From the NCBI RefSeq assembly GCF_003018255.1, contig NZ_CP027440.1: 64,000 bases of DNA; one strand, given 5' to 3'. Shown here one piece after another: positions 8,459-48,674 of this stretch. The notes below the pieces were generated by a model that saw only the letters and a list, made by a program, of their open reading frames with translations, searched no databases and was not told where the DNA came from. The DNA comes from Escherichia coli. Lineage in GTDB: Bacteria > Pseudomonadota > Gammaproteobacteria > Enterobacterales > Enterobacteriaceae. The position numbers were made by a program, and so were the translations under genes. Position 1 is the stretch's first letter, and each line of letters starts with the position of its first letter.

Positions 8459-9300
8459 TGGTTTTTTGCCTCGCTCTGTTGGCGGCAATAATCGGTATCG
8501 GAGCAGACAAACATGCGGTTTCCGGCGTCATCCAGCACCACTTCATCAAGATAGCTGTGGGTCGATCCGCAGATGGCGCACGGCTCATTCCACTGCTGAA
8601 CGGTGAACGGGTGATCGTCGAAATCGAGGCTTTCCACGCGGGTAAACGGCGGCACCGCATAGATGCGCTTCTCGCGCCCCGCGCCGAACAGTTGCAGGGC
8701 GGGCATCATGTTCATTTTCGGGTTATCAAATTTCGGGATCGGCGACGGGTCCATTACGTAGCGCCCGTTTACCTTCACCGGATAGGCGTAGGTGGTGGCG
8801 ATATGACCGAAGCGGGCGATATCTTCATACAGCTTCACCTGCATCACGCCGTACTCCTCCAGCGCGTGCATGGTGCGGGTTTCCGTTTCGCGCGGCTCGA
8901 TAAAGCGCAGCGGTTCGGGGATCGGCACCTGGAAAATAATGATCTGATCTTCGGTCAGCGGCGTTTCGGGGATGCGGTGGCGCGTCTGGATAAGCGTCGC
9001 ATCGTCCGTACGTTCAGTGGTGTTTACCCCGGTCACGCGCTTAAAGAAGTTACGGATCGACACCGCGTTGGTGGTGTCGTCCGCGCCCTGGTCAATCACC
9101 TTCAGCACATCGCTTTCGCCAATCACGCTGGCGGTAAGCTGTATGCCGCCGGTTCCCCAGCCGTAGGGCATCGGCATCTCGCGCCCGCCAAACGGCACCT
9201 GATAACCGGGGATCGCCACCGCTTTTAAGATGGCGCGGCGGATCATGCGTTTGGTCTGCTCGTCGAGGTAGGCAAAGTTGTAGCCGCTCAGATTAGCCAT
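8455..9300 (-). CDS. phnJ: C-P lyase catalytic subunit (radical SAM-like, Cys-rich C-terminus)
   Basis: ORF track 8455..9489; start at MANLSGYNF (281 aa); C-terminal CxxCx..C cluster. Confidence 0.9.
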   Translation of the reverse strand: MANLSGYNFAYLDEQTKRMIRRAILKAVAIPGYQVPFGGREMPMPYGWGTGGIQLTASVIGESDVLKVIDQGADDTTNAVSIRNFFKRVTGVNTTERTDDATLIQTRHRIPETPLTEDQIIIFQVPIPEPLRFIEPRETETRTMHALEEYGVMQVKLYEDIARFGHIATTYAYPVKVNGRYVMDPSPIPKFDNPKMNMMPALQLFGAGREKRIYAVPPFTRVESLDFDDHPFTVQQWNEPCAICGSTHSYLDEVVLDDAGNRMFVCSDTDYCRQQSEAKNQ

Positions 9301-10357
9301 GGTTCTGCTCCTGTTGCAGACGTTTGAGTAGCTCCAGTTCGGCCTGGAAATCGACGTAGTGCGGGAGTTTAAGGTGCGAGACAAAGCCTGCGGCTTCGAC
9401 GTTGTCGGCATGCGCCAGCACGAACTCTTCATCCTGCGCCGGGCCTGTCGCGTGCTCGCCGTACTCCGGGGCTTGTAGAGCGCGGTCAACCAGCGCCATC
9501 GCCATCGCTTTGCGCTCGCTCATGCCGAACACCAGCCCGTAGCCGCGCGTGAAGTGCGGCGGCTCATCCGGCGGGTCGATAAAACCGTTGACCATTTCAC
9601 ATTCGGTCATCAGCAGTTCGCCGACGTTCACCGCAAATCCCAGCTCTTCCGGCACAATCGACACGTCGATATAGCCGCTGCGGATTTCGCCTGCGAACGG
9701 ATGATTGCGTCCGTAACCACGCTGGGTGGAGTAGGCCAGCGCCAGCAAATAGCCTTCGTCGCCGCGCATTAATTGTTGCAGGCGGGAGGAGCGTGAGCAG
9801 GGGTAAACCGGCGGCGTGCGGGTGATGTCGTCCGGCTGTGCGCCGCTATCTTCTTCAAACTTCGCCAGCCCCTGACGCGCCAGCAGGCTGAAAACGTGCG
9901 GCGACGGCTGTTGTTCGCTGTCGGCTGTGGTCAGCGTCGGCGCTTCGCCGTTTGCCAGCAGGGTGAAATCGAGCAGGCGATGGGTGTAGTCGTAGGTTGG
10001 GCCAAGCAGCTGGCCGCCGGGAATGTCTTTATAAACCGCCGAAATACGGCGTTCGAGCCGCATCTCCGTGGTGTCGAGCGGCTCGCTCACCGCCAGCTTT
10101 GCCAGCGTCGTGCGGTAGGCGCGCAACAGGAAAATCGCTTCAACGTTATCGCCGCTGGCCTGTTTCAGCGCCAGTGCCGCCAGCTCACGGTCGGCAATGC
10201 CGCCTTCGGTCATCACGCGATCTACCGCGAGGTTAAGCTGCTGTTCAATCTGGGCGACGCTCAGTTCGGGTAAATCGGTATCGCCCCGGCGTCGGCTCTC
10301 TTGCAGGGCGTGGGCGGCGTCGATCGCCTTCTCGCCCCCTTTCACGGCAACGTACAT
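9293..10357 (-). CDS. phnI: C-P lyase core complex subunit PhnI
   Basis: ORF track 9293..10477; start at MYVAVKGG (354 aa); ATGA overlap with the phnH stop. Confidence 0.9.
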   Translation of the reverse strand: MYVAVKGGEKAIDAAHALQESRRRGDTDLPELSVAQIEQQLNLAVDRVMTEGGIADRELAALALKQASGDNVEAIFLLRAYRTTLAKLAVSEPLDTTEMRLERRISAVYKDIPGGQLLGPTYDYTHRLLDFTLLANGEAPTLTTADSEQQPSPHVFSLLARQGLAKFEEDSGAQPDDITRTPPVYPCSRSSRLQQLMRGDEGYLLALAYSTQRGYGRNHPFAGEIRSGYIDVSIVPEELGFAVNVGELLMTECEMVNGFIDPPDEPPHFTRGYGLVFGMSERKAMAMALVDRALQAPEYGEHATGPAQDEEFVLAHADNVEAAGFVSHLKLPHYVDFQAELELLKRLQQEQNHG

Positions 10358-10941
10358 CAGCACACCTCCACATGAGTGGTTCGCGGGATAGCCAGCAGGC
10401 GCTCGCCGCAGGTCAGGATCAGGTCGATGCCGAGCGGGAACGGGTGCGGGCGCTCGGTAAGTTCGTGCAGAATGCACTCTGGCAGCTGCGGGGCGATCAT
10501 TCGTTCTTCGGCAATACCCGCGCCAGTAAGGCGCAGCATGCGCCCGCCGCTCAGGCTGACGACCTGTAAAATCAGCGTCGCGCCCGCTTCTGGCGCAACA
10601 GCGGTGCCGCTGGAAAGGGCGTTAAGCTGTTCGCTGGAAATCGCCTCATCCGTTACCGCGAAGGTCGCCAGTTCCGGCTGATTGACCAGCGGCGCGTTGG
10701 TATGAAAACGCAGGCTCTGGCTGACGATATCGTTACTTAATGGCGCAGAAAGCCACACCGGCGTGTCGTTATCGGCCAGCGTCAGCAGCACGCTGGTGGT
10801 GGCGATATTCAGCGGCTGCCAGCCGCGTTTGAGCTGATGCAGGGCGACAATCACGCCCGGCTCGCTCATGGCTTTTAACAGGCGACGAAAACTGTGCTGG
10901 GCATCCTGCACGGGAAGCATAAAAGCGGTTTCCAGGGTCAT
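10357..10941 (-). CDS. phnH: C-P lyase core complex subunit PhnH
   Basis: 194-aa ORF, phn synteny. Confidence 0.85.
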
Positions 10942-42785: not shown

Positions 42786-44139
42786 TAATCACCTCCACTG
42801 AATGGCCTCCGGGAATGAACAGCGGATCAACAATACCGTTACGGCGCACAAAACGTTGCCAGCCGGTACTGTTCCCGGTGGCACGGTACAGGGTCACCAG
42901 TGCAGGCTCGGTGGTACGTACAGTCACTACTGTTGCACCGGGTAGCTGAACTCCCCGTGTATTCAGATCCTCTGTCAGTGCCAGTCTGGCATCACGAAGC
43001 GTCAGCGCCGTGGCGGTATACCCCTGCCCGGACAGTGTCATCACCTGCCGTTCGAGCGCTTCGCTTAAGTCACGGTTAATGCGCTGAAGATCAACTGAAC
43101 TTTCCAGCCAGACAGGCCAGGTACGGTGGGCTGCGTCACTGTCCGGCAGGGTTTCCTGACTGAGAACCTGATCCAGCAGTTTTCCCACGGTCTGTGCCTG
43201 GGCCACCACGGCAGCACTCTGCATTACCGCCCGTATCAGACGAATATTCTTTTGTGCTGCCGGTGTCAGACCGATGAGAGTCTGCGGATTATCCTGCTCA
43301 TCCAGCACGTAACGCAGGGAAGATAATGTCCTGTACAGTTGCGGCATTCCCTGAGAGACGGCGGATGTCGTCCGGCCGATACTGCCACCGGGCCGGGTAT
43401 TCAGGCCTCCTGAAGACAGTGACGGCAGCGATGGCAGGGTGATCAGGGCACTGAAAAGCCCCGCAAAAGATGAGGCCATGCGGGAAGGTGCTGTCAGTAA
43501 TGCCGTGGCATTCCCTTTCAGCGCCGTGAACGTGGCAGTAAAGGCACTGATATCCTGTACAATCCCCATGCCGGAAACGGCATTTTCCAGGGCGGACACC
43601 TTATCGCTGATGGTTTCGGTCATTGCCTGGACATCGTGCATTCCGTCAGAAATCACCGTCCAGCCCGCTTCCAGGGTTTCAAAAACCTTCCCGAGCGCGG
43701 TGGTACTCTTCTGCTCCAGAATGGCGGCCGTGTCCTGTGTGACAGCAGGTGCGGTATCATCACTTACCGGCGTGACATTAATGGTGAACTCAACCACGCC
43801 CTGTTCAGCAGCGTTATAACGACTTTCAAAGCTGTTTATCAGCACATTTAACGTGCCGTAATCCGGGTGAAGCAGCTCCCCGGCACCGGGAGCACGAAGG
43901 GCATCACGCAGACGATTTCGCTGTGTCTGAACATCATCCCCCATCACAAGTACACTGAACGTAAATTCAGCCAGTTTAGGTCCCAGATCGTCTGCACCAC
44001 CGGTTTCCCGTAACGGATATTCCCGACGGACAATGTTTCGCCCGCCACGTTCGCGCTGCTCACGCCAGACGAGGAACGGCACACCACGGAACGCACCACG
44101 ACCGTCACCAGAGGCCATAATTCCCTCCGTTCCAGACAT
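42769..44139 (-). CDS. DNA circularisation protein N-like (Mu gp43)
   Basis: 456-aa ORF directly downstream of the tape measure gene, Mu order. Confidence 0.6.
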   Translation of the reverse strand: MSGTEGIMASGDGRGAFRGVPFLVWREQRERGGRNIVRREYPLRETGGADDLGPKLAEFTFSVLVMGDDVQTQRNRLRDALRAPGAGELLHPDYGTLNVLINSFESRYNAAEQGVVEFTINVTPVSDDTAPAVTQDTAAILEQKSTTALGKVFETLEAGWTVISDGMHDVQAMTETISDKVSALENAVSGMGIVQDISAFTATFTALKGNATALLTAPSRMASSFAGLFSALITLPSLPSLSSGGLNTRPGGSIGRTTSAVSQGMPQLYRTLSSLRYVLDEQDNPQTLIGLTPAAQKNIRLIRAVMQSAAVVAQAQTVGKLLDQVLSQETLPDSDAAHRTWPVWLESSVDLQRINRDLSEALERQVMTLSGQGYTATALTLRDARLALTEDLNTRGVQLPGATVVTVRTTEPALVTLYRATGNSTGWQRFVRRNGIVDPLFIPGGHSVEVISEQQG

Positions 44140-46180
44140 TCACATCCAGTCCGTGACCGGACGTGTCATCAATATCAATACTGCGAGCCTGCCACCCTTC
44201 CGGGGCAACCAGCTCCACACGGGCAGAGGCTTTTTGTACCGCCTGTCCACTGCTTTCATCATCACTGCCCCGTAATTTCTGCCAGGCTTCAGTCAGCCAT
44301 CCCCCCAGATAGTTACCGAGATAGCTGCCCACCGTAGAACCAATGGCAATCCCCACAGGTCCGGCTGCCGCCCCCAGCGCACCACCGGCAATACTGCCTG
44401 CAAGAGAGCCGACCGCTTCTCCCTTGTCTGTGGCACTGGCGCTGCCATCCAGCAGAACCGGGGCTGCCATCGCGCCAGCCCACAGGGCACCTCCACCCAG
44501 CCGGCCGGCCAGTCCACCGGCACTGCGGAAAAAGCCGGAGAAACGCCCCAGCCCCATGCGGCTACCGACAGACGAAAGTAACCCACCGGCGCGCCCCATC
44601 ATGCGCCCCCAGAACCCTGCCCCACCAGAAGAGGGAGACGGTGGCACTGGGGACGGTGGCAGGGGAGGCGTGACCGGTCTTCCGCGCCCCGGTCCGCGTT
44701 TCCTGCGGCCCCGCCCCTGACGTCCGCCTGAGGATGTATCGGTCGCGCCGGTGCCGGACAGTCCTCCTGTGGGCCAGTTTGTTACAAGTACTGGCTGAAC
44801 GGCTGCCGGATTTACCCCGGTAAGAAAGTTTATAAAACGTTGCCCTCGTCCCTGAGATGTGCCTGGTGGTGTTCCGGCCGGAGGAGAGCGCCGGAAAGGT
44901 GAAGTCAGGAAGGCCGCCGCTGATAATCCGTATCCCAGCAATGCAGCACCCGGACGTATAATCCCCGTTCCGACAGCCCGCGCCATTTTCAGGGCACGGG
45001 TGGCGAGATACATGTACAGCAGGTATTTCGCGGCAGTCTGTGCCCCCTGACCAATGCGATCCAGCGCATCACCATAGCCCGCATCCCGCAGAGCCTGAAG
45101 CGTGTCGCGTACCTTTCTGATCGCCTGATAAAACCCTGTCACTGCATCACGGGCATACTCAAAGCCCTGGTTCATGGCTGATGCCGTGCTTTCCGCCAGG
45201 GAATGGTAACTGCCATCAGATTTGGCACTGTCAACCCATGAAAGAAATCCCCTGAGATTACCCTTCAGTTTTTCAAATGGCCCACTGTCCATCACATCCC
45301 GGGCAAACTGGTCCCAGACGTCACCCATCATGGCCGTCAGGCCACTCCAGGAATTCATTGCGTCCTTTTGTGCTCCCCTGGCCTGTTCCGCCAGCGTCTG
45401 AAATAACAGGCGAATACTGTCCGGCCCAAGCAGCCCTTTTTCACCAAGTTTTCTGACCACTTTCTGGTCCACACCCAGACGATCAGCCAGCACGCGGTAG
45501 GCATTAATGCCGTAGGTGGCAAGAATATTTGCATCCGCCGCCTGAATACTGCCTCTTGCATACATCTGTTTCAGTTGCAGGGATGCCCCCTGTGCATCGG
45601 ACAGTGACCAGCCGCCCACGGCCCCCTGATCCTGAAGCATGGTGACAAAATTTCGGGCCTCCCTGTCACTCATACCAAAGCCCAGACTGGACGTATATTC
45701 CTGCATGACGCCAGCCAGCCCCCAGGTGGTTTCCTTCGCATTCTGTATTGCCCACCTGCGGACATCATCCGTTTTCGCCCGATCCCCTTTGTAAAGGGAG
45801 TTCAGGCGAATCATATAGGTTTCCATCTCCGCTGCCGGGCGAATAAATCCCCGGTTAAAGCCATATACAGCAGCACCACCGGCCAGCATTCCGTAAAGAT
45901 TGCTGATCCGCCCGATGGTGCCGGTAATACTGCCCTGAAGACGGTCAAAATCAGAAGTGACATGGCGGATACTGCCCCGCACCCCGGCCAGCGTGCGCTG
46001 CATCCTGCTTCCGAGTACATCTGTTTCCTGCCCGGCACGGCGGGCAGCATTTCCCAGGCCACCCAGCCCCGCCTGGCCGGAGCGTGAGAATGCCCCCAGC
46101 TCCTGTGACCACTGGCGGGATTTGGCTGAGATATTGCCGAGCAAATCAACTATCAGAGATGCTCTGAGATTTCGGGCCAT
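44105..46180 (-). CDS. tail tape measure protein
   Basis: 691-aa ORF with Gly/Ala-rich and Pro-rich low-complexity stretches, between chaperone and N. Confidence 0.75.
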   Translation of the reverse strand: MARNLRASLIVDLLGNISAKSRQWSQELGAFSRSGQAGLGGLGNAARRAGQETDVLGSRMQRTLAGVRGSIRHVTSDFDRLQGSITGTIGRISNLYGMLAGGAAVYGFNRGFIRPAAEMETYMIRLNSLYKGDRAKTDDVRRWAIQNAKETTWGLAGVMQEYTSSLGFGMSDREARNFVTMLQDQGAVGGWSLSDAQGASLQLKQMYARGSIQAADANILATYGINAYRVLADRLGVDQKVVRKLGEKGLLGPDSIRLLFQTLAEQARGAQKDAMNSWSGLTAMMGDVWDQFARDVMDSGPFEKLKGNLRGFLSWVDSAKSDGSYHSLAESTASAMNQGFEYARDAVTGFYQAIRKVRDTLQALRDAGYGDALDRIGQGAQTAAKYLLYMYLATRALKMARAVGTGIIRPGAALLGYGLSAAAFLTSPFRRSPPAGTPPGTSQGRGQRFINFLTGVNPAAVQPVLVTNWPTGGLSGTGATDTSSGGRQGRGRRKRGPGRGRPVTPPLPPSPVPPSPSSGGAGFWGRMMGRAGGLLSSVGSRMGLGRFSGFFRSAGGLAGRLGGGALWAGAMAAPVLLDGSASATDKGEAVGSLAGSIAGGALGAAAGPVGIAIGSTVGSYLGNYLGGWLTEAWQKLRGSDDESSGQAVQKASARVELVAPEGWQARSIDIDDTSGHGLDVNVWNGGNYGLW

Positions 46181-46306
46181 ACTTACTGCTTCGTTCTGAT
46201 GATTTTTTCTGTCTGTCGGCAGTGCCGGTAAAGTTGCGACAGGGGGAGGTTAAGCGCCCATTCCGGACCGCTTTTTGTCACCATCCCCAGGATAATTGCC
46301 GCTTCT

Positions 46307-46801
46307 TCAATCTGATCCCGACACTGCGCCTGATCGCCCCCGGTCAGCTGCCAGCTTTCCGGCAAGCGCGGTATCCAGCAGGCTGACCGCTGCCATCAGG
46401 CGGGAGAGATCGCGCTCGCTTAACTGTCCAATCTGACGGGGTGACAACGGACCTTCAATGTCTCCCACTGCGGCAATCTGACGGCGCAGCAGTGCAACAC
46501 CGCGTAACGACGGAGACGCTATCAGCATCGGGCCATTGTTTGTCTCCACCACGCGCTCGGCTTCTGCTTCTGCGTCAATACTGTCTTTCGCTGTCAGTTC
46601 CCGGAACGTGACACGATATTCACGGGTCTCACCAAACGGCAGACCATCAAGCAGATCCACATATCCCTTTGCCAGTTGCTCTGTCAGCCCGGCAGTGCGT
46701 GGATCAGCCCCCTCAAGTGCTTCCCGGATTGCCTCCATCACGGCTGCCTCGGAAACTGCCGTTTTTTTCTTACGTGTGGTCATTTTATTTTTCCTGATCA
46801 C
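46307..46801 (-). CDS. tail assembly chaperone-like protein (Mu gp41), with a 60-codon overlapping alternative frame 46183..46365
   Basis: 164-aa ORF between tube and tape measure; the overlapping ORF ends 3 nt before the tape measure start. Confidence 0.55.
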   Translation of the reverse strand: MIRKNKMTTRKKKTAVSEAAVMEAIREALEGADPRTAGLTEQLAKGYVDLLDGLPFGETREYRVTFRELTAKDSIDAEAEAERVVETNNGPMLIASPSLRGVALLRRQIAAVGDIEGPLSPRQIGQLSERDLSRLMAAVSLLDTALAGKLAADRGRSGAVSGSD

Positions 46802-47163
46802 TGAACACGGGTACTGGTGGCGCTGGCGAACTTCACGGAGATCTCCCCGCCACCGTCAAGCGAGGCCGGTTCACTGCTCCAGGCCTTCGTCATCATGTGG
46901 ACTTCGCCGGTATCCGCCACAAACTCGATAGTGACCGCAGTCCAGTTGTTGATTTCATCAGCGGCTGGTGAGCCTTCTCCGCCTGCCGGAAATTTGCAGT
47001 CCAGCGTCGCTTCACGTGGTTTCTGGCGGTAACCATAGACTTTCGCGCCTTTCACCACTTCACGTTCAAAACCTGACGGAGAAAATGTAGCCCCCTCAAG
47101 CGTCTCGTATTCCTGACCGTTCACACGGATAGTGGCCGTGCCCTGATACTGTTTTCCGCTCAT
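46798..47163 (-). CDS. tail tube protein (Mu M-like)
   Basis: 121-aa ORF directly downstream of sheath. Confidence 0.7.
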   Translation of the reverse strand: MSGKQYQGTATIRVNGQEYETLEGATFSPSGFEREVVKGAKVYGYRQKPREATLDCKFPAGGEGSPAADEINNWTAVTIEFVADTGEVHMMTKAWSSEPASLDGGGEISVKFASATSTRVQ

Positions 47164-47171
47164 GCCTTACC

Positions 47172-48674
47172 TCACAAAATGAAACGGATCTGTGCTGCCA
47201 GGAAGCGGAACTGGTTAACCAGATCCGGCGTGCATAACACGTCAAGACGGTTTCGATCTGACGCATTACGCTCCACAAGCAGATTCTTTTTAAAGGTGTC
47301 CAGATTTTCGACCAGCCCGAGTTCCACCCACTCTTCACCCAGCGAAATTAACTGAAGCTTCATGATCTCCGGCGTCACGATATTCTGACCGGCACGAACG
47401 GGCGTCCCGTCATCAGCCAGTTTATGGCGCGGAAAACGTTGTGTGATAAAAGTACGCAGGGAATAACGCAGCCAGGAGAGGGTGTAGATGGTTTCCACAT
47501 CCAGATAGCTGGGATCACTTTCGCCGTACACGTTCTGGCGATACATGGTCACCTGACGTTCGATCTGAACCACATCACCGGCAGCCACACTGACCGTGGC
47601 AATCCCTCCCCACAGCAGACTGTTACGCTCTTCACGCGTCAGACGATCGGCCGGAGCCGGGGCCATGCGTGACGGAAGCGCCAGCGTCTGAAGCGGACGC
47701 GCAGGATCTGCTCCCAGAGAGGGTGCACAGGTGGCACAGACCGCCGCTGCCCAGAGGTAATCCGGTTCAGGGGCTTTGGGAATGGATGTGCAGGTCGCCA
47801 GAAAATCATTGCGTTTTGCCCCGAATGCCTGCACCTCACCAAACGTGCCGGTATGTGCCAGCCACAGCACGCCGTCAGACATTTTGGCCGGTCCCCAGCG
47901 TTTCAGAAGCTCATCACTGATGATTTTCAGGTTTGCATCATCCTTATAGGGCATGACGACATAGTTGTACTGGCGATCGCCCATCCCCGCCACGCTTCGG
48001 GTGATATCCGGGTTAGCCGCTTTTTGTTTCGGATAGGCTATAGCGACCTGTATTCCTTCCGGGGTTGCTTCCCCGTCGTGATAGTTCAGGCGCACATCAT
48101 GAACGGAGCATTCACCGGTAAAGCGGGCGGTGATCCCCAGAGACCCTTTCAGACCTGCGCCATTATCACCACTTCCTGCACCAGAGGAGGCCGTGAAGGG
48201 CGCGTCAGGATCGGCATTGATCAGCGCGGCCAGCTCGTCGGTCAGTTCTTTGCCTTTCTTACCTTTTGGTGCCGGGAGTGTATAACGCCGCCCCCCCACG
48301 CAGGCATAAACAATCCCGTCACGGGTGACCGTTCCGGTCAGATTCATGGCCGCAGCCGTTGCCTGTCCGGTGCCGTTCCCCTGAGCAATGGCATACAGTT
48401 CAGCATCAGGATTGATGGCGATAAATTCCGCCACCATCAGGGCAATCATGGAACCGCGCCCCCAGAGTTCTGTTGCCTGAGACGCACGGGTGATCCTGAC
48501 CGGAACATCCAGAACACCGGCACCGTCCACGGCATTCTCTTTCATTCTCGCCTGACCAAACAGCAGCACACACTGACGCTGTGCCGGAGTGCCGGTGACA
48601 GCCATGGAGTTATTAAACTCAACCTCAATCAGCGGTATACGGCGGTCATTACCGATCCCGTCAAAATTAATCAT
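47172..48674 (-). CDS. contractile tail sheath protein (Mu L-like)
   Basis: 500-aa ORF, Mu order. Confidence 0.75.
   Translation of the reverse strand: MINFDGIGNDRRIPLIEVEFNNSMAVTGTPAQRQCVLLFGQARMKENAVDGAGVLDVPVRITRASQATELWGRGSMIALMVAEFIAINPDAELYAIAQGNGTGQATAAAMNLTGTVTRDGIVYACVGGRRYTLPAPKGKKGKELTDELAALINADPDAPFTASSGAGSGDNGAGLKGSLGITARFTGECSVHDVRLNYHDGEATPEGIQVAIAYPKQKAANPDITRSVAGMGDRQYNYVVMPYKDDANLKIISDELLKRWGPAKMSDGVLWLAHTGTFGEVQAFGAKRNDFLATCTSIPKAPEPDYLWAAAVCATCAPSLGADPARPLQTLALPSRMAPAPADRLTREERNSLLWGGIATVSVAAGDVVQIERQVTMYRQNVYGESDPSYLDVETIYTLSWLRYSLRTFITQRFPRHKLADDGTPVRAGQNIVTPEIMKLQLISLGEEWVELGLVENLDTFKKNLLVERNASDRNRLDVLCTPDLVNQFRFLAAQIRFIL

What the first reader, a model, noticed from the sequence alone, without database searches (positions are those of the whole stretch)
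46183..46365. Possible programmed frameshift in the tail assembly chaperone
A 60-codon frame overlaps the 3' end of the chaperone-like gene (46307..46801) and stops 3 nt before the tape measure start. This is the arrangement expected for the frameshift-extended tail chaperone conserved in long-tailed phages. The overlap contains a CCGGGGG run that could act as a slippery site, but it is not a canonical heptamer.
Basis: inference. Interest (0 to 1): 0.3.

Follow-up and report, generated by a model that had tools for sequence, protein, structure and literature searches.

The report
Mu-type minus-2 frameshift in tail chaperone
The small overlapping frame is real coding sequence, most likely reached by the rare "two bases back" ribosomal frameshift first shown in phage Mu; this is a new copy of a known mechanism in an E. 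coli O157 Mu-like prophage, where databases leave the fused protein unannotated.

Summary
On the minus strand, a frame that is +1 (equivalently -2) to the tail assembly chaperone gene (46783..46307) stays open from 46395 to the stop at 46185..46183, 2 nt before the tape measure ATG (46180).

The "CCGGGGG run" is part of CGG GGG CGA (octamer GGGGGCGA, 46341..46334). This is identical in sequence and phase to the experimentally verified -2 frameshift site of phage Mu gp41.

- The chaperone matches Pfam Gp41_Mu (7.6e-32).
- The 50 codons after the slip site are 52% identical to Mu's extension.
- The -1 frame is closed.
- Substitutions in the extension are mostly synonymous only in the -2 frame.
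- No start codon for the second frame is conserved.
- In 90 of 91 related loci, the core G_GGG_CGA sits in the same phase, followed by a 44-51 codon extension.

The predicted products are a 158-aa chaperone and a minor 200-aa fusion.

A 10-bp RNA helix starts 6 nt after the slip site. Helices at that position recur across 16 sequence clusters (0 of 1000 shuffles reach the observed value).

This is a known mechanism in a new member, so interest is low. The fusion is unannotated in RefSeq and absent from a 15-billion-protein collection.

The parts
46307..46783 (-). Tail assembly chaperone, zero-frame product (158 aa from ATG 46783; the ORF tool's GTG at 46801 would give 164 aa). It is a homologue of Mu gp41.
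   Evidence: Pfam Gp41_Mu 7.6e-32 and Phage_TAC_7. PHROG 508, tail assembly chaperone, 1.2e-46. RefSeq annotates 46783..46307 as 'phage tail assembly protein'. About 49% identical to Mu gp41.
46334..46342 (-). Slip site CGG GGG CGA in the zero frame (octamer GGGGGCGA at 46341..46334). Proposed tandem -2 slippage moves tRNA-Gly from GGG to GGG and tRNA-Arg from CGA to GGC.
   Evidence: Identical in sequence and phase to the Mu site, which PMC3458567 describes as tandem -2 slippage on GG GGG CGA. The core GGGGCGA is the only invariant block in a 35-sequence alignment with 51% mean column identity. It is present in phase in 90 of 91 loci.
46183..46335 (-). Extension read in the -2 (+1) frame after the shift: 50 codons (DQAQCRDQIEE...IIRTKQ) plus the TAA stop. 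Together with 46783..46334 it gives the predicted 200-aa fusion, join(46783..46334, 46335..46183) on the minus strand.
   Evidence: 52% identity to Mu's extension, E 1e-20. PHROG 12783, 1.3e-36. Synonymous-biased substitutions only in this frame. Extension length is constant at 44-51 codons across relatives. Fusion built.
46183..46365 (-). The TTG is probably not used.
   Evidence: The first possible start codon in this frame ranges from -45 to +31 codons relative to the slip site across relatives, and D108 has none.
46318..46327 (-). 5' arm (GCAGUGUCGG) of a candidate stimulatory RNA helix. It starts 6 nt after the CGA codon.
   Evidence: Present in both the MFE and centroid structures. The same helix is in Mu. 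RNAalifold predicts it in the enterobacterial clade, with 269 of 270 cells paired. Helices starting 3-9 nt after the slip site are enriched across 16 clusters.
46219..46228 (-). 3' arm (CCGGCACUGC) of the same helix. The arms enclose 89 nt.
44105..46180 (-). Tape measure protein gene, starting 2 nt after the extension's stop codon.
   Evidence: Pfam TMP_3 1.9e-18. RefSeq 'tape measure protein'.
46798..47163 (-). Tail tube protein gene, immediately upstream of the chaperone.
   Evidence: Pfam Tail_tube 5.6e-31. RefSeq annotation.
47172..48674 (-). Tail sheath protein gene.
   Evidence: Pfam Phage_sheath_1, Phage_sheath_1C and Phage_sheath_domII.

Best explanation
This is the Mu-type programmed -2 ribosomal frameshift of a tail assembly chaperone, located in a Mu-like prophage of E. 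coli O157:H7.

Most ribosomes translate 46783..46307 and make a 158-aa gp41-like chaperone. A small fraction slip back two nucleotides when GGG is in the P site and CGA in the A site (CGG GGG CGA, 46342..46334). tRNA-Gly re-pairs with GGG and tRNA-Arg(ICG) re-pairs with GGC. Translation then resumes at GAU (46335) in the other frame for 50 more codons and stops 2 nt before the tape measure gene.

The result is a 200-aa fusion that shares 150 N-terminal residues with the chaperone and swaps its last 8 residues for a 50-residue tail. A 10-bp RNA helix beginning 6 nt downstream (46327..46318 with 46228..46219) probably stimulates the shift.

By analogy with lambda gpG/gpGT, the shared part would bind the tape measure protein and the extension would recruit the tube protein, with the low ratio set by frameshift efficiency.

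Shown here: homology, the site and its phase, conservation, and coding selection on the second frame.
Inferred: that the shift occurs in this prophage, its -2 direction, its efficiency, the role of the helix, and the function of the two products.
For: - Identity of the gene: Pfam Gp41_Mu 7.6e-32, with the gene order sheath, tube, chaperone, tape measure.
- The slip site CGG GGG CGA is identical in sequence and phase to Mu's.
- Mu's GenBank record annotates a 'verified -2 translational frameshift in PMID 15469818'.
- PMC3458567 describes tandem -2 slippage on GG GGG CGA. PMC3498833 gives about 2.2% efficiency for Mu. PMC5009743 lists Mu as a -2 case.
- The extension is 52% identical to Mu's, E 1e-20, with the same 50-codon length.
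- In 10 of 10 annotated Mu-like phages and prophages from Escherichia, Vibrio, Shewanella, Pasteurella and Alteromonadaceae, the octamer is in phase, the -2 frame is open to the tape measure start, and the -1 frame is closed.
- With 80 further viral contigs, 90 of 91 loci carry in-phase G_GGG_CGA. Of 62 distinct sequences, 54 have GGGGGCGA.
- GGGGCGA is the only invariant nucleotide block in alignment A2. RGR is invariant in the protein alignment.
- The base before GGG is always G although the preceding codon varies (CGG, AGG, AAG, CAG, TCG). This fits backward slippage, not +1 slippage.
- Coding selection: against relatives about 85% identical, there are 7-8 synonymous versus 2-5 non-synonymous codon changes in the -2 frame, and about 1 versus 10 in the other frames.
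- No start codon is conserved for the second frame.
- The chaperone-to-tape-measure gap is 126 nt, while neighbouring genes abut or overlap.
- RNA helix: it is in the MFE and centroid folds, is shared with Mu, and is predicted by RNAalifold. Across 16 clusters, the best helix starting 3-9 nt after the site averages 9.75 bp, against 6.1-7.4 bp at control offsets and 6.29 +/- 0.34 bp in codon shuffles, with 0 of 1000 shuffles reaching the observed value.
Against: - There is no protein-level evidence for this prophage. Everything rests on homology with Mu and comparative sequence analysis.
- The octamer is not rarer than chance in the window (2 found, 2.9 expected).
- The window's downstream fold is not more stable than shuffles (z -0.6).
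- Within the enterobacterial clade, 6 of 10 helix pairs never vary and only one pair shows a double change. Both arms encode conserved residues (QCR, YRHC), so the helix could be a by-product of protein conservation in this clade.
- No single consensus structure exists across all clades.
- Direction (-2 versus +1) cannot be settled from sequence.
- Databases disagree on the junction residue in Mu: GenBank UIW09302.1 has RGR|E and UniProt P0DJY4 has RG|GE.
- Xu et al. 2004 could not be read here.
Confidence: 0.9

Rival explanations
1. The shift is +1 rather than -2. With the slowly decoded CGA codon in the A site, the P-site tRNA-Gly slips forward from GGG to GGC. This gives a 199-aa fusion (...DRG|DQAQ...).
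For: The target frame is the same, so sequence alone cannot exclude it. Eight of 62 distinct relatives have only four Gs (AAG/CAG/TCG GGG CGA). In these, -2 re-pairing in the P site loses the first position while +1 re-pairing is unaffected.
Against: The Mu shift is recorded as a verified -2 event and described as tandem -2 slippage. Both database versions of the Mu fusion are the 188-aa -2 length, and the 187-aa +1 version is not deposited as an annotated product. The base immediately 5' of GGG is an invariant G and the one before it is G in 54 of 62 sequences, although the encoded residue varies. Forward slippage would not need this.
Confidence: 0.05
2. The second frame is an independent small gene, translated from its own start codon (the TTG at 46365 or an internal ATG), as annotated for D108 gene 41.5 and as called by gene finders.
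For: D108 annotates a separate '41.5' CDS. The 60-aa TTG ORF is deposited as 'hypothetical protein' on 360 contigs. PHROG 12783 consists of such stand-alone calls.
Against: The first possible start codon ranges from -45 to +31 codons relative to the slip site across 64 distinct sequences, and some have none, D108 included. The TTG is absent in L021, an 85% relative. No Shine-Dalgarno sequence precedes the TTG. An independent gene would not explain the invariance of an in-phase GGGGCGA just upstream of the conserved peptide.
Confidence: 0.03
3. RNA polymerase slippage on the G run yields a minority of mRNAs with one G fewer (or two more), which encode the fusion directly.
For: Homopolymer runs can cause transcriptional slippage (reviewed in PMC5009743). 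Assemblies with a one-G-shorter run and directly fused frames exist (L048; two 187-aa Logan proteins).
Against: The run is only 5 G here and 4 G in 8 of 62 relatives, which is far shorter than runs known to slip (my own knowledge, not tested here). The invariant CGA codon 3' of the run, and its fixed phase, have no role in transcription but fit an A-site codon. A single-G deletion would give the +1-length product, not the -2 length recorded for Mu.
Confidence: 0.02

Closest known systems
Phage Mu gp41 / FS-gp41 (Mu_41 / Mu_56; UniProt P0DJY4; Xu, Hendrix & Duda 2004, PMID 15469818): -2 programmed ribosomal frameshift on GG GGG CGA
   Same: Homologous chaperone (about 49% identity, Pfam Gp41_Mu). 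Identical slip site and phase. Homologous 50-codon extension (52% identity). Same gene order: sheath, tube, chaperone, tape measure. Same 10-12 bp helix 6 nt downstream.
   Different: The window's chaperone has 14 more N-terminal residues. The zero frame continues 8 codons after the site, against 6 in Mu. The extension stops 2 nt before the tape measure ATG, against 14 nt in Mu. The helix is 10 bp rather than 12 bp, and the local fold is not unusually stable (z -0.6 against -3.9). The product has not been demonstrated for this prophage or annotated.
Lambda gpG/gpGT and P2 gpE/gpE+E': canonical -1 frameshift in tail assembly chaperones
   Same: Same genomic position, just upstream of the tape measure gene. 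Same logic: an abundant short chaperone and a rare C-terminally extended form (PMC5009743). Pfam Phage_TAC_7, which covers P2 E and Mu 41, matches weakly (1.2e-05).
   Different: The shift goes into the +1/-2 frame, not -1, and the -1 frame is closed. The site is not an X_XXY_YYZ heptamer: the codons CGG GGG CGA fail the YYZ rule. The extension shows no sequence similarity to lambda T or P2 E' families.
E. coli dnaX -1 frameshift signal (internal Shine-Dalgarno + slippery site + downstream stem-loop)
   Same: A slippery site followed by a helix a few nucleotides downstream. In many other Mu-like clades, a Shine-Dalgarno-like element also lies 4-14 nt upstream.
   Different: A different direction and a different slip sequence. 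In the window and in Mu the upstream Shine-Dalgarno-like element is weak (-3.5 and -4.8 kcal/mol). The helix is long-range, with an 89-nt loop, rather than a compact hairpin.

Membership tests
Mu-type -2 frameshifted tail assembly chaperone (gp41 / FS-gp41) | The zero-frame protein is homologous to Mu gp41. | tested here: met
   Pfam PF23746 Gp41_Mu 7.6e-32, covering the whole 107-position profile. tblastn to Mu gives 49% identity, E 4e-26. PHROG 508.
Mu-type -2 frameshifted tail assembly chaperone (gp41 / FS-gp41) | The gene lies between the tail tube gene and the tape measure gene. | tested here: met
   Tube 47163..46798, chaperone 46783..46307, tape measure 46180..44105, all on the minus strand.
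Mu-type -2 frameshifted tail assembly chaperone (gp41 / FS-gp41) | [quoted passage not shown] | tested here: met
   CGG GGG CGA at 46342..46334, in the same phase as Mu. The site is as described in PMC3458567.
Mu-type -2 frameshifted tail assembly chaperone (gp41 / FS-gp41) | The +1/-2 frame is open from the slip site to the tape measure start and encodes a peptide homologous to Mu's extension. | tested here: met
   Open from 46395 to 46186. 52% identity to Mu's extension, E 1e-20. PHROG 12783, 1.3e-36.
Mu-type -2 frameshifted tail assembly chaperone (gp41 / FS-gp41) | The second frame is under purifying selection and conserved in relatives. | tested here: met
   Synonymous-biased changes only in the -2 frame. 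90 of 91 loci have the site plus a 40-60 codon open -2 frame.
Mu-type -2 frameshifted tail assembly chaperone (gp41 / FS-gp41) | A fusion protein is actually made, at a low percentage. | not testable with these tools
   Known only for Mu (GenBank note; about 2.2% per PMC3498833). There are no data for this prophage.
Mu-type -2 frameshifted tail assembly chaperone (gp41 / FS-gp41) | The direction of the shift is -2, giving one more residue than +1. | tested here: inconclusive
   Sequence cannot decide. The invariant G 5' of GGG favours backward slippage. For Mu the databases hold only the -2 length.
Canonical -1 frameshift of tail chaperones (lambda G/GT, P2 E/E+E') | The extension is in the -1 frame and reached from an X_XXY_YYZ heptamer. 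| tested here: not met
   The -1 frame closes after 21 codons, and the extension is in the +1/-2 frame. CGG GGG CGA does not fit X_XXY_YYZ (direct reading).
Transcriptional slippage sites | A long homopolymer run on which RNA polymerase slips. | tested here: not met
   The run is 5 G here and 4 G in 8 of 62 relatives. The threshold of roughly 7 or more nucleotides is from my own knowledge.

The most novel reading that the evidence does not exclude
The comparative data suggest that the Mu-type -2 signal is more than the octamer.

- A helix whose 5' arm starts about 6 nt downstream is conserved in position, but not in sequence or partner, across 16 clusters. In the window and Mu it is a long-range helix enclosing 85-89 nt.
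- Many non-enterobacterial clades add a Shine-Dalgarno-like element 4-14 nt upstream.
- A minority of sequences use a four-G site (A/C GGGG CGA).

If these elements have not been described (I could not read Xu et al. 2004 or Baranov et al. 2006), they would define the stimulatory architecture of the main known natural bacterial -2 frameshift.
Probability: 0.3. Interest if true: 0.4.

Novelty: new member of a known kind. Interest (0 to 1): 0.15.

Why it matters
For the window itself, this is mainly an annotation correction. A 126-nt stretch that RefSeq leaves empty in about 200 complete E. coli genomes, mostly O157:H7 and other Shiga-toxin-producing strains, encodes the C-terminus of a 200-aa tail assembly protein. 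None of the three possible junction versions of that protein appears in a 15-billion-protein collection.

More broadly, -2 frameshifting is very rare. The strict conservation of G_GGG_CGA across Mu-like phages of Escherichia, Vibrio, Shewanella, Pasteurella and other hosts gives a simple rule for annotating it. The position-conserved downstream helix also gives a natural set of variants for studying what drives -2 rather than -1 slippage.

Tried and rejected
- A canonical -1 frameshift was rejected. The -1 frame is closed and there is no X_XXY_YYZ heptamer.
- The octamer's frequency in the window was not informative: 2 found, 2.9 expected.
- A single consensus RNA structure across all Mu-like clades was sought. 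RNAalifold found none, and the enterobacterial helix in fixed alignment columns is only 67% paired family-wide. It was replaced by a position-based test.
- Within-clade covariation for the helix is weak: 6 of 10 pairs are invariant.
- An Rfam scan of 46100..46500 gave no family.
- NCBIfam and PDB sequence searches with the fusion found nothing useful.
- Reading Xu et al. 2004 by PubMed id failed because the paper is not held.
- The 60-aa ORF clusters with 159-aa chaperones in the protein collection. Inspection shows these are ordinary zero-frame chaperones, so this was treated as a clustering artefact.
- Structure prediction and the large protein searches were not run, because they would not change the verdict.

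Full report
**1. What is in the sequence**

On the minus strand, the region 42.8-48.7 kb is a contractile-tail module.
- Sheath, 48674..47172 (Pfam Phage_sheath_1, Phage_sheath_1C and Phage_sheath_domII).
- Tube, 47163..46798 (Tail_tube, 5.6e-31).
- A 158/164-aa protein, 46783 or 46801..46307. It matches Pfam Gp41_Mu (7.6e-32) and, weakly, Phage_TAC_7.
- Tape measure protein, 46180..44105 (TMP_3, 1.9e-18).
- A DNA circularisation protein homologue.

Translating all three frames shows that it lies in the +1 frame of the chaperone, which is the same frame as -2. It is open for 70 codons from 46395. The -1 frame has stops at 46346 and 46280.

The stop of the second frame is followed by GT and then the tape measure ATG. 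Genes on either side abut or overlap. The chaperone stop and the tape measure start, however, are 126 nt apart, and RefSeq leaves that stretch unannotated.

**2. Identity of the element**

The region is 100% identical to chromosomes of E. coli O157:H7. It is at least 99% identical in 194 complete-genome records and present in 227 of 5426 genomes. A second allele group is 84-86% identical.

In the phage collection, the nearest DNA matches are "inserted Bacteriophage Mu-like phage" regions of two Stx-converting phage records. The chaperone protein finds Mu, D108, SfMu and Yersinia Mu-like phages at about 49% identity. More distant Mu-like phages of Klebsiella, Alteromonadaceae, Pasteurella, Shewanella and Vibrio match at 33-50%.

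**3. The decisive comparison**

The GenBank record of Mu annotates two products from the gp41 gene. Lin et al. [quoted passage not shown]

- Mu's sequence reads GAA CGG GGG CGA GUG.
- The window reads GAC CGG GGG CGA UCA.
- The nine nucleotides CGG GGG CGA, and their phase, are identical.
- After the site, both phages have exactly 50 sense codons in the -2 frame, and the peptides align without gaps at 52% identity (E 1e-20). The window reads DQAQCRDQIEEAAIILGMVTKSGPEWALNLPLSQLYRHCRQ... and Mu reads EWLRCRNDIEKAATAIGVILKSGPEWALSLPLSRFFRHCQQ....

**4.

*Annotated loci.* In ten annotated Mu-like loci from five host groups, GGGGGCGA sits in the same phase. The -2 frame is open through the 107-144 nt gap between the annotated chaperone stop and the tape measure start, ending within 17 nt of that start. 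The -1 frame is closed.

*Wider sample.* A scan of viral contigs added 80 loci. Over all 91 loci, 90 have an in-phase G_GGG_CGA followed by a 40-60 codon open -2 frame. The exception, L048, has indels that fuse the frames. Among 62 distinct sequences:
- 54 have GGGGGCGA.
- 6 have AGGGGCGA.
- 2 have CGGGGCGA.

*Alignments.* In a 35-sequence nucleotide alignment with 51% mean column identity, GGGGCGA is the only invariant block. In the protein alignment, R-G-R is invariant although the proteins are only 33-47% identical.

*Selection.* In the 120 nt of the extension that do not overlap the chaperone frame, the window differs from its roughly 85% relatives by 7-8 synonymous and 2-5 non-synonymous codon changes in the -2 frame. 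Read in the other two frames, the same differences give about 1 synonymous and 10 non-synonymous changes.

*Start codons.* The first possible start codon in the -2 frame wanders from -45 to +31 codons relative to the site, and D108 has none. The second frame is therefore coding, conserved, and has no initiation signal of its own.

**5. Mechanism**

The best-supported reading is ribosomal -2 slippage with GGG in the P site and CGA in the A site. The new frame then resumes at GAU (46335).

The products are the 158-aa chaperone and a 200-aa fusion: 150 shared residues plus 50 new ones that replace the last 8.

Comparative data add one argument for backward rather than forward (+1) slippage. The base immediately 5' of GGG is G in every sequence, although the codon it ends varies (CGG, AGG, AAG, CAG, TCG).

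The junction residue is uncertain even for Mu. An exact-sequence look-up shows two versions:
- GenBank's UIW09302.1 is the ...RGR|EWL... version, as expected from tandem slippage.
- UniProt's P0DJY4 is ...RG|GEWL..., as expected from P-site-only slippage.
- Both are 188 aa.

Efficiency in Mu is cited as about 2.2% (PMC3498833). A cell-free measurement gave 14% (bioRxiv 10.1101/2025.10.02.679949).

**6. Possible stimulators**

*Downstream helix, in the window and in Mu.* Folding the window's RNA places GCAGUGUCGG (46327..46318, starting 6 nt after CGA) in a 10-bp helix with CCGGCACUGC (46228..46219). This holds in both the MFE and centroid structures, but the segment as a whole is no more stable than shuffles (z -0.6). 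Mu has the same helix, extended to 12 bp, with z -3.9.

*Within the enterobacterial clade.* RNAalifold recovers the helix on 27 sequences, and 269 of 270 cells pair. However, 6 of 10 pairs never vary and there is a single double-sided change. Both arms also encode conserved residues. Within-clade evidence is therefore only compatible with a structural role.

*Across clades.* This evidence is stronger. The longest contiguous helix whose 5' arm starts at a given offset after CGA peaks sharply at offset 6. At the level of 16 clusters (65% nucleotide identity), the best helix starting 3-9 nt downstream averages 9.75 bp. Six control offset windows give 6.1-7.4 bp. Codon shuffles give 6.29 +/- 0.34 bp, and 0 of 1000 reach the observed value. 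Arm sequences, loop sizes (7-109 nt) and partners differ between clades, so position is conserved rather than sequence.

*Upstream element.* A Shine-Dalgarno-like element 4-14 nt upstream is enriched across the clusters: mean best duplex -7.6 kcal/mol, against -2.8 in control windows. It is weak in the window (-3.5) and in Mu (-4.8).

*Known families.* Rfam has no family for this region.

**7. Function (inferred)**

By analogy with lambda gpG/gpGT (summarised in PMC5009743), the shared N-terminal part would coat the tape measure protein. The extension would recruit the tube protein. Neither product would end up in the virion. None of this was tested here.

The extension has no Pfam, NCBIfam or PDB match. 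In PHROGs it is family 12783, "unknown function". That family exists because the extension is often called as a stand-alone ORF, such as D108 gene 41.5. In this prophage it is called as a 60-aa "hypothetical protein" on 360 contigs.

**8. Rivals**

- +1 slippage gives the same frame. Only the junction peptide can exclude it. The invariant 5' G and the Mu record argue against it.
- Independent initiation is contradicted by the lack of any conserved start codon and by the conserved in-phase site.
- Transcriptional slippage is unlikely on four or five Gs. It also does not explain the invariant CGA.

**9. Novelty and verdict**

The mechanism is known (Xu, Hendrix & Duda 2004). The site here is a sequence-identical orthologue in an obviously Mu-like prophage. 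What is new is modest.
- The fusion is not annotated in RefSeq for these genomes.
- None of its three possible junction versions exists in a 15-billion-protein collection.
- The family-wide survey suggests additional signal elements (helix, Shine-Dalgarno-like element, four-G variants). I could not check these against the original paper.

The finding is correct, well explained and of low interest.

Noticed in passing
window 46184-46306 (and L004:3545-3670): RefSeq/PGAP annotation of identical E. coli O157:H7 chromosomes leaves the 126 nt between the chaperone stop and the tape measure start without any feature. Other Mu-like phage records leave similar gaps of 107-126 nt. D108 calls a separate gene 41.5, and PHROG 12783 ('unknown function') is made of such calls.
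   Followed up: yes
L032-L035, L037 (about position 1947), L039:1959, L054/L057:1890: Eight of 62 distinct Mu-like sequences have a four-G slip site (AAG/CAG/TCG GGG CGA) instead of CGG/AGG GGG CGA. The same conserved -2-frame extension follows. P-site re-pairing after a -2 shift would then lose the first codon position, so these may shift less efficiently or by another route (+1).
   Followed up: partly
L048:1847 (IMGVR_UViG_2758568005_000002); proteins P0003 and P0008 (Logan assemblies): A few Mu-like sequences have a G run one base shorter, which fuses the chaperone and extension frames directly (...RGEWL..., 187 aa). L048 has a second indel further on. I could not tell whether these are sequencing errors or natural fused-only mutants.
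   Followed up: no
L008, L012, L062, L069, L070, L078, L087: 4-14 nt upstream of the slip site: Strong Shine-Dalgarno-like elements (GGAGG or GAGGTG, duplex -9 to -14 kcal/mol with the anti-SD) lie about 10 nt upstream of the slip site in many non-enterobacterial Mu-like clades. The mean over 16 clusters is -7.6 kcal/mol, against -2.8 in control windows. The element is weak in the window (-3.5) and in Mu (-4.8).
   Followed up: partly
Mu fusion protein (L001:1453-2017): Two public versions of the Mu frameshift product differ at the junction residue. GenBank UIW09302.1 reads ...ERGR|EWL... and UniProt P0DJY4 reads ...ERG|GEWL.... They correspond to tandem slippage and P-site-only -2 slippage respectively.
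   Followed up: partly
window 46783-46801: The mechanical ORF starts at GTG 46801, overlapping the tube gene's stop codon. ATG 46783 has an AGGA 8 nt upstream, is the RefSeq start, and is where the homologues begin, so the chaperone is more likely 158 aa than 164 aa.
   Followed up: partly
window 10332-10339 (-): This is the only other GGGGGCGA in the window. By hand calculation it lies inside ORF 9293..10477 (-) in a different phase (GGG GGC GA), so it is not a Mu-type site.
   Followed up: partly
window about 36400-64000 (-): The tail module belongs to a long run of minus-strand ORFs that reaches the end of the window. This fits a Mu-like prophage whose late region is in the window. From about 1-34 kb the ORFs are on mixed strands, which I did not examine. 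Prophage ends and intactness were not examined.
   Followed up: no
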